NCBI RefSeq assembly: GCF_036507355.1 | Contig: NZ_AP027877.1 | DNA: 64,000 bases | DNA from: Escherichia coli | GTDB taxonomy: Bacteria; Pseudomonadota; Gammaproteobacteria; Enterobacterales; Enterobacteriaceae | Direction: 5' to 3' (one strand) | Shown here: piece after piece, positions 12,001 to 15,000 of the stretch | How positions within the stretch are numbered: the first letter of the stretch is position 1 | Layout of the letters: each line of letters opens with the position of its first letter | Program-made: the position numbers

Positions 12001-15000
12001 GGGCTGGGTGAGCCTGTTTACTCTGCATGTTATCTGGCCGTTTCTGTGGATCTGGGCGACGCTCTATCAACCGGAGCGTGGCTGGGGTATGCAGTCACAT
12101 GTTGCGTCGCAGGAGAAAGCGACTGACCCGGAAATCGCCGCACTTTCTGACCGAATTTCCCGGCTGGAGCATCAACTCGCCGCCGAGAAAAAGACTGACT
12201 ATTCCACGTTCCCGGAGATCTAATTATGGATCTATTGATTGTTTTAACTTACGTGGCGCTGGCGTGGGCGGTCTTTAAAATCTTTCGTATTCCGGTGAAT
12301 CAGTGGACGCTGGCGACGGCGGCGCTGGGAGGCGTGTTTCTGGTGAGTGGTTTGATTTTGTTGATGAACTACAACCACCCTTACACTTTTACCGCGCAAA
12401 AGGCAGTGATAGCGATCCCTATCACGCCACAGGTGACGGGAATTGTTACTGAAGTCACTGATAAGAATAATCAGCTTATTCAAAAGGGCGAGGTACTTTT
12501 TAAGCTCGACCCGGTTCGTTACCAGGCGCGAGTTGACAGACTTCAGGCTGACCTGATGACGGCGACGCATAATATAAAAACGCTGCGCGCCCAGCTCACT
12601 GAAGCGCAGGCCAACACCACCCAGGTTTCAGCGGAGCGCGACCGTCTGTTTAAAAATTATCAACGTTACCTGAAAGGCAGCCAGGCGGCGGTGAATCCGT
12701 TCTCGGAACGTGACATCGACGATGCGCGGCAAAATTTCCTCGCGCAGGATGCGCTGGTGAAAGGCTCGGTGGCGGAGCAGGCGCAGATCCAGAGCCAGCT
12801 CGACAGTATGGTTAACGGCGAGCAATCGCAGATTGTGAGCTTAAGAGCGCAACTTACAGAAGCAAAATATAACCTTGAACAGACCGTCATTCGCGCACCG
12901 AGCAATGGCTACGTCACTCAGGTACTGATCCGCCCAGGCACATACGCCGCTGCCTTGCCGCTGCGTCCGGTGATGGTCTTCATCCCCGAGCAAAAACGGC
13001 AAATTGTCGCCCAATTTCGGCAAAACTCGCTGTTACGTCTGAAACCTGGCGATGATGCGGAAGTGGTGTTTAACGCGCTACCTGGGCAGGTGTTCCACGG
13101 CAAACTGACCAGTATTTTACCAGTCGTGCCAGGCGGTTCTTATCAGGCGCAGGGGGTATTGCAATCATTAACGGTCGTGCCCGGCACGGACGGTGTGCTG
13201 GGAACCATTGAACTGGACCCTAACGATGATATCGATGCCTTACCCGACGGCATCTACGCCCAGGTGGCAGTTTACTCCGACCATTTCAGCCATGTTTCGG
13301 TGATGCGGAAAGTGCTGCTAAGAATGACCAGCTGGATGCATTATCTTTATTTGGATCATTGAGACTTATATCACCTGTGTTTTGCGTGAGCCTGAGCCAT
13401 ACTGATATTTTTCCTCGCACAAAGGACTCGGCATGAAACTCGTCGGTAGCTACACCAGCCCGTTTGTACGCAAACTTTCTATTCTGTTGTTAGAAAAGGG
13501 CATAACTTTCGAATTTATTAATGAACTGCCCTATAACGCGGACAACGGCGTGGCGCAATTTAACCCGTTAGGAAAAGTGCCGGTGCTGGTGACCGAAGAG
13601 GGCGAATGCTGGTTTGATTCGCCGATCATCGCTGAATATATTGAGTTAATGAATGTCGCTCCGGCGATGTTGCCGCGCGATCCGCTGGAGTCGTTGCGGG
13701 TGCGCAAAATTGAGGCGCTGGCGGATGGCATTATGGATGCCGGGCTGGTATCGGTGCGTGAACAGGCGCGTCCAGCGGCGCAGCAGTCTGAAGATGAATT
13801 GTTACGCCAGCGGGAGAAAATCAACCGCAGCCTGGATGTGCTGGAAGGATATCTGGTCGATGGCACACTCAAAACTGATACGGTCAATCTGGCGACTATC
13901 GCCATTGCCTGTGCCGTCGGGTATCTCAATTTCCGCCGCGTTGCGCCAGGCTGGTGTGTCGACCGCCCACACTTAGTCAAACTGGTCGAAAACCTGTTTA
14001 GCCGCGAAAGTTTTGCTCGCACCGAACCGCCAAAGGCTTGATGCGCGATATGTCCTCCTGACCCATCTCACGTTACAATCCGTGGTTATGTTAAACGCCC
14101 TTCTCCGTGTGAGAGGGCCTTGATCAGCCAGGTTTCCTATGACAACCGAAACGCGTTCTCTCTATAGTCAACTTCCGGCTATTGATCGCTTATTGCGCGA
14201 TAGCTCCTTCCTTTCTTTGCGTGATACTTATGGTCACACCCGCGTGGTGGAATTGTTGCGTCAGATGCTCGACGAAGCGCGAGAAGTGATTCGTGACAGC
14301 CAGACGCTGCCTGCGTGGTGTGAAAACTGGGCGCAAGAAGTCGATGCCCGGTTGACGAAAGAGGCGCAGAGCGCGCTGCGTCCGGTGATAAACCTGACGG
14401 GAACCGTGCTGCATACCAATCTTGGGCGAGCTTTACAGGCGGAAGCTGCGGTGGAAGCCGTTGCGCAGGCTATGCGTTCGCCAGTGACCCTCGAGTACGA
14501 TTTGGACGACGCCGGACGCGGACATCGCGATCGGGCGCTGGCGCAGCTGCTGTGCCGCATTACCGGCGCGGAAGATGCCTGTATCGTTAATAACAATGCG
14601 GCGGCGGTGTTATTGATGTTGGCGGCCACTGCCAGCGGGAAAGAGGTGGTGGTTTCTCGCGGCGAATTGGTGGAGATTGGCGGCGCGTTTCGTATTCCCG
14701 ATGTTATGCGTCAGGCAGGCTGCACACTACACGAAGTAGGGACCACCAACCGCACGCACGCGAATGATTATCGTCAGGCGGTGAATGAAAATACCGCACT
14801 GTTGATGAAAGTACATACCAGTAACTACAGCATTCAGGGGTTCACCAAAGCGATAGACGAAGCTGAACTGGTGGCGCTCGGCAAAGAGCTGGATGTTCCC
14901 GTAGTGACTGATTTAGGCAGTGGCTCGCTGGTCGATCTTAGCCAGTACGGTTTGCCGAAAGAGCCAATGCCGCAGGAGTTGATTGCGACGGGCGTCAGTC

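What the first reader, a model, noticed from the sequence alone, without database searches (positions are those of the whole stretch)
13363..13432. No rhs element between yibH and yibF
yibH and yibF are separated by only 70 bp. From memory, K-12 carries the RhsA element and associated genes at this junction, so this strain either never acquired it or precisely lost it. This is useful as a strain or phylogroup marker.
Basis: established knowledge. Interest (0 to 1): 0.25.

Follow-up and report, generated by a model that had tools for sequence, protein, structure and literature searches.

The report
Empty RhsA site between yibH and yibF
In this E. coli strain yibH and yibF sit 70 bp apart because the 8.2-kb RhsA toxin island of K-12 was never inserted here, an ordinary polymorphism shared by about 28% of complete E. 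coli genomes and already published.

Summary
yibH ends at 13362 and yibF starts at 13433, leaving a 70-bp spacer.

- **K-12 comparison:** in MG1655 the same two genes are 8,287 bp apart, with rhsA, yibA, yibJ, yibG, yibS, yibW, yibV and yibU between them. Base by base, the window has 32 bp (13364-13395) where K-12 has 8,249 bp. From memory, Feulner et al. 1990 reported these same two numbers for an Rhs-free strain.
- **Frequency in 5,426 complete E. coli genomes:** 1,521 (28%) have this empty junction. 3,725 (69%) have the K-12-type rhs junction. 143 (2.6%) carry an unrelated fimbrial and S6-peptidase island at the same site.
- **Ancestral state:** the 32 bp is conserved in E. whittamii and two other divergent Escherichia lineages, and is recognisable in Citrobacter amalonaticus. 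yibH-yibF adjacency holds in all 14 outgroup loci that keep yibH. On both flanks the window groups with other empty strains, outside a tight clade of Rhs-occupied strains.

The site is therefore ancestral and unoccupied, not an excision scar. It marks lineage only roughly: O145:H28 is empty and O157:H7 is occupied. This is already known and of low interest.

The parts
11861..12223 (+). yibI (DUF3302 small membrane protein), first gene of the yibI-yibH pair
   Evidence: ORF. Pfam DUF3302 at 2.7e-41. Annotated yibI in matching genomes.
12226..13362 (+). yibH (HlyD-family periplasmic adaptor). Its stop codon TGA at 13360-13362 is the left edge of the junction.
   Evidence: ORF. NCBIfam EmrA/HlyD adaptor families. 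98.2% nucleotide identity to K-12 yibH.
13363..13432 (.). The 70-bp yibH-yibF spacer, which is the unoccupied RhsA site
   Evidence: The identical 70-bp spacer occurs in E. coli FDAARGOS_943 and O145:H28. 1,521 of 5,426 complete genomes hold the contiguous junction.
13364..13395 (.). 32-bp segment ACTTATATCACCTGTGTTTTGCGTGAGCCTGA, present here and absent from K-12, where 8,249 bp (NC_000913.3 3761993-3770241) stands in its place. It is the ancestral spacer sequence.
   Evidence: Exact prefix/suffix comparison. Conserved with 1-4 substitutions in E. whittamii, Escherichia sp. E1V33, E. coli E69 and SCPM-O-B-8794, and recognisably in Citrobacter amalonaticus.
13396..13432 (+). 37 bp shared with K-12 immediately upstream of the yibF ATG. 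It holds a conserved CATACT (13398-13403, inferred -10 hexamer) and an AAGGA ribosome-binding site. Homology with Rhs-occupied genomes resumes at 13396.
   Evidence: common suffix of 37 bases. (alignments to K-12, L009 and E. albertii all begin at 13396). CCATACT is kept across genera. The promoter role is inferred: the consensus scan found no full sigma-70 site.
13433..14041 (+). yibF (glutathione S-transferase-like protein), the right edge of the junction
   Evidence: ORF. NCBIfam PRK10357 at 7e-123. Pfam GST_N and GST_C. 99.0% nucleotide identity to K-12 yibF.

Best explanation
The 70-bp spacer is the ancestral, never-occupied form of the chromosomal site that holds the RhsA element in K-12 and most phylogroup A, B1 and E-type E. 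coli. RhsA encodes a YD-repeat polymorphic toxin with immunity genes and orphan toxin tips. In the lineage that gave rise to the occupied allele, about 8.2 kb of foreign DNA replaced the 32 bp that follows the yibH stop codon. The last 37 bp before yibF, with its probable -10 element and ribosome-binding site, was left intact. The strain in the window descends from a lineage in which this never happened. Nothing is missing functionally except the Rhs toxin and immunity cassette. yibI-yibH and yibF-selA-selB are intact and arranged as in other Enterobacteriaceae. Shown here: the coordinates, the exact breakpoints, the population frequencies, the conservation in outgroups and the grouping of the flanks. 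Inferred: that the insertion was a single event, and that the shared 37 bp is the yibF core promoter.
For: (1) Exact breakpoints: one shared base after the yibH TGA, then 32 bp in the window against 8,249 bp in K-12, then 37 shared bases before the yibF ATG. (2) The 32 bp is not in the 20-kb K-12 locus fetched. It is conserved in E. whittamii, Escherichia sp. E1V33, E. coli E69 and SCPM-O-B-8794, and is similar to the Citrobacter amalonaticus spacer (z = 4.3 against shuffles). (3) yibI-yibH lies directly next to yibF, 61-174 bp away, in all 14 loci from other Escherichia lineages and other genera that keep yibH. These include Citrobacter, Kluyvera, Lelliottia, Huaxiibacter and Pluralibacter, and none has an Rhs hit there. 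(4) On both flanks K-12, O157:H7 and O104:H4 (all occupied) form a clade. It is tight on the left flank (0.27-0.47% divergence) and looser on the right (1.2-1.8%). The window groups with the empty O145:H28 and FDAARGOS_943. The empty ST131 and IAI39 branch separately, so the empty alleles are paraphyletic and diverse. (5) No Rhs remnant is present in the window. (6) The empty junction is found in 1,521 of 5,426 complete E. coli genomes. Occupied genomes break at the same base, query position 94, which is window 13396. (7) Jackson et al. 2009 (PMC2935791) list the yibF-yibH site as rhs locus 10 and infer that it arose after the split from the pathogenic-strain group that lacks the Clade I rhs expansion.
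Against: Homologous recombination can move either allele between lineages, so an ancestor of this strain could once have had RhsA and later received an empty allele; the flank tree rests on only ten sequences. An Escherichia sp. at about 95% identity to the window (MOD1-EC7003, L009) carries the K-12-type yibF-side junction. The occupied allele is therefore not confined to one E. coli clade. O145:H28 (empty) and O157:H7 (occupied) differ although, from memory, they are sister lineages.
Confidence: 0.85

Rival explanations
1. Secondary loss by allele replacement. An ancestor carried RhsA, and homologous recombination with DNA from an Rhs-free strain, with crossovers in the flanking genes, restored the ancestral empty spacer.
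For: Both states occur among strains said to share a lineage: O145:H28 is empty and O157:H7 is occupied. Across its three segments the window matches different strains best, at 98.7-99.4% identity, which suggests a mosaic history.
Against: The window's flanks over 1.5 kb on the left and 3.9 kb on the right group with other empty strains and show no affinity to the occupied clade. This is what a recombined tract would also produce, so the rival cannot be excluded. It does need an extra event.
Confidence: 0.11
2. Precise excision or deletion of the RhsA element from a K-12-like occupied site.
Against: A deletion cannot recreate the 32 bp that K-12 lacks and that outgroup species share. The K-12 element has no convincing terminal direct or inverted repeats to support excision. 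The longest direct match near the ends is 10 nt, equal to the maximum seen in 200 shuffles, and it does not lie at the ends. The longest inverted match is 5 nt. No Rhs remnant is present.
Confidence: 0.02
3. Assembly artefact: a repeated Rhs element collapsed out of the assembly.
For: Rhs cores are long, near-identical repeats that often break or confuse short-read assemblies.
Against: A collapse would not produce the specific 32-bp ancestral sequence. The same 70-bp spacer is present, base for base, in closed genomes.
Confidence: 0.01

Closest known systems
The 'Rhs0' (RhsA-null) allele described by Hill and co-workers (Feulner et al. 1990, J Bacteriol 172:446; cited from memory, as the paper is not in the held library)
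   Same: The junction and the numbers are the same. My own comparison gives 8,249 bp in K-12 against 32 bp in the window, which is what I recall that paper reporting for an Rhs-free natural isolate.
   Different: Nothing of substance. Here the 32 bp is also shown to be conserved in other Escherichia species, so it is ancestral rather than merely 'unrelated'.
rhs locus 10 (yibF / yibH) of Jackson et al. 2009, BMC Genomics 10:584 (PMC2935791)
   Same: The flanking genes are the same. The paper reports the locus as present in some strains and absent in others, and infers that it arose after the split from the pathogenic-strain group that lacks the Clade I rhs expansion.
   Different: The window is an absent-state example. 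The present survey covers 5,426 genomes instead of 20 and finds a third allele.
RhsA element of E. coli K-12 (rhsA, yibA, yibJ, yibG and orphan tips)
   Same: It occupies exactly this chromosomal position.
   Different: It is entirely absent from the window. The occupied site varies in length among strains: 6,533 bp in O157:H7, 8,287 bp in K-12 and 8,823 bp in O104:H4.

Membership tests
Unoccupied RhsA site (Rhs0 allele) of E. coli | yibH and yibF are orthologous to the K-12 genes and directly adjacent | tested here: met
   98.2% and 99.0% nucleotide identity to K-12 yibH and yibF, with a 70-bp spacer
Unoccupied RhsA site (Rhs0 allele) of E. coli | A short sequence (32 bp) stands in place of the 8,249-bp K-12 element, with the same breakpoints | tested here: met
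   One search gives 32 bp against 8,249 bp. Occupied genomes resume homology at window 13396.
Unoccupied RhsA site (Rhs0 allele) of E. coli | No rhs core, tip or immunity sequence at the locus | tested here: met
   tblastn with RhsA and YibA, and blastn with the whole element, gave no hit in the window
Rhs element (YD-repeat polymorphic toxin locus) | A large GC-rich core ORF with YD repeats, followed by a variable C-terminal tip and an immunity gene | tested here: not met
   No such ORF lies between 13363 and 13432 or elsewhere in the window
Excision or deletion scar of a mobile element | The junction can be derived from the occupied allele by deletion alone, usually with a retained repeat copy | tested here: not met
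   The window has 32 bp that the occupied allele lacks. The K-12 element has no terminal repeats beyond chance.
Ancestral state of the locus | The same arrangement and spacer sequence in outgroup species | tested here: met
   E. whittamii, Escherichia sp. E1V33, divergent 'E. coli' E69 and SCPM-O-B-8794, and Citrobacter amalonaticus

The most novel reading that the evidence does not exclude
The yibH-yibF spacer may be a recurrent landing site where islands arrive by homologous recombination from diverged donors, each bringing its own diverged copy of the spacer. On this reading, the last 55-65 bp of what has been called the RhsA element would be a diverged remnant of a donor's yibH 3' end plus spacer, not Rhs DNA. 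The support is as follows. That stretch is not shared with the rhsB or rhsC upstream regions. It aligns colinearly with the yibH 3' end and spacer, with a shared 10-mer TTTATTTGGA at almost the same distance from the conserved GCCATACTG (44 against 42 nt). It resembles the spacers of E. albertii and an Enterobacteriaceae MAG (z of 3-4). The S6-peptidase island allele likewise carries an approximately 83%-identical spacer next to a yibF 5' end that is 100% identical to K-12 (first 97 bases tested).
Probability: 0.3. Interest if true: 0.2.

Novelty: already known. Interest (0 to 1): 0.07.

Why it matters
It matters little beyond bookkeeping. The strain lacks one Rhs toxin and immunity cassette and carries the ancestral gene order. 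The state of this site is a cheap, roughly lineage-informative marker with three common alleles (69% RhsA, 28% empty, 2.6% fimbrial and autotransporter island). Recombination blurs it, so it cannot stand in for phylogroup typing.

Tried and rejected
- **Promoter and terminator scan of 13200-13550:** no site on either strand.
- **RNA fold of 13320-13440:** no more stable than shuffles, z = 0.75.
- **Rfam:** no family in or near the spacer.
- **Terminal repeats of the K-12 element:** the longest inverted match is 5 nt. The longest direct match is 10 nt, equal to the maximum in 200 shuffles, and it is not at the ends. No transposon-like signature was found.
- **Is the 32 bp just a diverged copy of the last 32 bp of the K-12 element?** Global alignment is no better than shuffles, z = 0.0. 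A longer colinear alignment is suggestive, and I kept it only as the novel-case reading.
- **Original papers:** I tried to read Feulner 1990 (PMC208451), Wang 1998 (PMC107404) and Hill 1995 (PMC1206714). None is held, so what I say about them is from memory.
- **Phylogroup of the window strain:** this could not be typed, because the Clermont marker genes lie outside the window. The best matches are only 98.7-99.4% identical and come from different strains in different segments.

Full report
**Observation.** The window carries mtlA (minus strand), then yibI (11861-12223), yibH (12226-13362), yibF (13433-14041), selA and selB, all on the plus strand. The gap between the yibH stop codon and the yibF ATG is exactly 13363-13432, 70 bp. 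The coordinates in the finding are therefore correct.

**Comparison with K-12.** In MG1655 (NC_000913.3) the same two genes are 8,287 bp apart. Between them lie rhsA, yibA, yibJ, yibG, yibS, yibW, yibV and yibU. A base-by-base comparison gives the following:
- One shared base follows the yibH TGA.
- Next come 32 bp in the window (13364-13395, ACTTATATCACCTGTGTTTTGCGTGAGCCTGA) against 8,249 bp in K-12 (3761993-3770241).
- Then 37 shared bases run up to the yibF ATG.

From memory, Feulner et al. (1990, J Bacteriol 172:446) reported exactly these figures, 8,249 bp in K-12 and an unrelated 32 bp in an Rhs-free isolate. I could not open that paper. Jackson et al. 2009 (PMC2935791) list yibF/yibH as rhs locus 10, present in some strains and absent in others. 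The E. coli W genome paper (PMC3032704) places rhsA at b3592-b3596. No Rhs-related DNA or protein-coding remnant exists anywhere in the window.

**Frequency.** Counts are out of 5,426 complete RefSeq E. coli genomes.

| State of the yibH-yibF site | Genomes | Share |
|---|---|---|
| Empty junction (190-bp probe) | 1,521 | 28% |
| K-12-type yibF-rhs junction | 3,725 | 69% |
| K-12-type yibH-side junction | 3,716 | 68% |
| Fimbrial operon plus S6-peptidase autotransporter island | 143 | 2.6% |

- An independent 1,816-bp probe found 1,523 genomes with the contiguous junction.
- The third allele is an unrelated island of about 10 kb in the same spacer.
- About 37 genomes (0.7%) fit none of these states.
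- Occupied genomes resume homology with the window at the same base, 13396.
- The occupied site varies in length: 6,533 bp in O157:H7, 8,287 bp in K-12 and 8,823 bp in O104:H4.
- Empty examples include ST131, IAI39 and O145:H28.
- Occupied examples include K-12 derivatives, O26, O111, O104:H4 and O157:H7.

**Polarity.** A scan of one genome per species with YibF returned 55 loci.
- yibI-yibH lies directly upstream of yibF, 61-174 bp away, in all 14 loci from other Escherichia lineages and other genera that keep yibH. These include E. whittamii, Escherichia sp. E1V33, two divergent 'E. coli', Citrobacter, Kluyvera, Lelliottia, Huaxiibacter and Pluralibacter. None has an Rhs gene there.
- The 32 bp is conserved with 1-4 substitutions in the other Escherichia lineages. 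It is recognisable in C. amalonaticus (z = 4.3 against shuffles). It is no more similar to the last 32 bp of the K-12 element than chance (z = 0.0).
- In trees of the left flank (yibI-yibH) and the right flank (yibF-selB), the three occupied genomes form a clade, although they are usually assigned to phylogroups A, E and B1. The clade is tight on the left flank (0.27-0.47% divergence) and looser on the right (1.2-1.8%).
- In the same trees the window groups with the empty O145:H28 and FDAARGOS_943, and the empty ST131 and IAI39 branch separately.

Empty alleles are thus old, diverse and paraphyletic. The occupied allele looks like a single, younger acquisition. A deletion of the element could not recreate the ancestral 32 bp, and the K-12 element has no terminal repeats beyond chance. 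The most likely history is that this lineage never acquired RhsA. Restoration of the empty allele by homologous recombination cannot be excluded. I give it about 0.1, partly because O145:H28 and O157:H7 differ in state.

**The spacer itself.**
- The consensus scans find no promoter or terminator.
- The RNA fold is unremarkable.
- Rfam has nothing there.
- The 37 bp shared by all arrangements contains CATACT (13398-13403) and AAGGA, both conserved across genera. I infer that these are the yibF -10 element and ribosome-binding site.
- I also infer that selection on them explains why different arrangements (RhsA, the L009 variant, E. albertii) all appear to break at 13396.

**A nuance that is not established.** The 65 bp or so of the K-12 'element' nearest yibF is not shared with the rhsB or rhsC upstream regions. 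Homology between rhsA and rhsC starts only about 120 nt upstream of the start codon. That stretch aligns colinearly with the yibH 3' end plus spacer, and it includes a shared 10-mer at nearly the same distance from GCCATACTG. The S6-peptidase island likewise sits next to a diverged copy of the spacer, about 83% identical. This suggests that islands reach this site by recombination from diverged donors and bring their own spacer allele. The statistical support is weak, with p around 0.002-0.01 for single comparisons.

**Verdict.** As a marker it is usable but imperfect. The polymorphism is already known and of low interest.

Noticed in passing
window 13363-13432; L003 and L064 (E. coli SCU-204, NZ_CP053251.2): A third allele of the same spacer: an island of about 10 kb with an HTH gene, a fimbrial chaperone-usher operon and an S6-family autotransporter peptidase lies between yibH and yibF in 143 of 5,426 genomes. 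Next to it is a spacer about 83% identical to the window's, and a yibF 5' end that is 100% identical to K-12 (first 97 bases tested).
   Followed up: partly
L001 (K-12), locus positions about 5994-6060, which are the last 65 bp of the 8,249-bp RhsA element next to yibF: This stretch is not shared with the rhsB or rhsC upstream regions. It aligns colinearly with the yibH 3' end plus spacer, with a shared 10-mer TTTATTTGGA. It may be a diverged remnant of a donor's spacer rather than Rhs DNA.
   Followed up: partly
L009 (Escherichia sp. MOD1-EC7003) 1-2962: This non-coli Escherichia (about 95% identical to the window) has the K-12-type junction upstream of yibF. There is no Rhs core within 2.9 kb; instead there is a DDE_Tnp_1-associated (H-repeat/ISAs1-like) fragment and unknown ORFs. 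It looks like a degraded or rearranged RhsA-type insertion outside E. coli proper.
   Followed up: partly
L010 (E. albertii NBRC 107761) 89-838: Upstream of yibF there is a MOSC/YiiM-like gene instead of yibH, and homology with the window again starts at 13396. The contig ends 838 bp upstream, so the wider arrangement is unknown.
   Followed up: partly
window about 18713-18764 (between yiaY and aldB): The window, like K-12, lacks the 1.3-kb Fic-family gene that O145:H28, O157:H7 and SCU-204 carry between yiaY and aldB. This is another presence/absence polymorphism.
   Followed up: no
window about 58668-63627: A long polar fimbriae (lpf) operon lies near yhjX, ghrB and bisC. The whole 14-kb segment 50001-64000 is found at 80% coverage or more in only 498 of 5,426 genomes.
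   Followed up: no
window 20960-22425: yiaW-yiaV is a paralogous copy of the yibI-yibH pair (DUF3302 plus HlyD adaptor; 73% and 77% amino-acid identity), 9 kb downstream.
   Followed up: no
window 198-4586 (minus strand): The YadA-like trimeric autotransporter ORF is 1,462 aa here, 1,709 aa in O145:H28 and 1,531 aa in SCU-204. It is a length-variable repeat protein.
   Followed up: no
window 48386-48541 (+), 48824-49251 (-), 29601-29643 (+): Rfam hits: sok antitoxin RNA (a hok/sok-type locus), the cspA 5' thermoregulator and the ES036 sRNA. These are ordinary E. coli features.
   Followed up: no
whole window: The best matches among 5,426 complete E. coli genomes are only 98.7-99.4% identical and come from different strains in different segments: O145:H28 for 1-25000, pig isolates for 25001-50000, and an environmental isolate for 50001-64000. 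The source strain therefore belongs to a poorly sampled or mosaic lineage.
   Followed up: partly
L062 (E. coli IAI39) 5208-5816: yibF is annotated as a pseudogene with an internal stop in IAI39, an empty-site strain.
   Followed up: no
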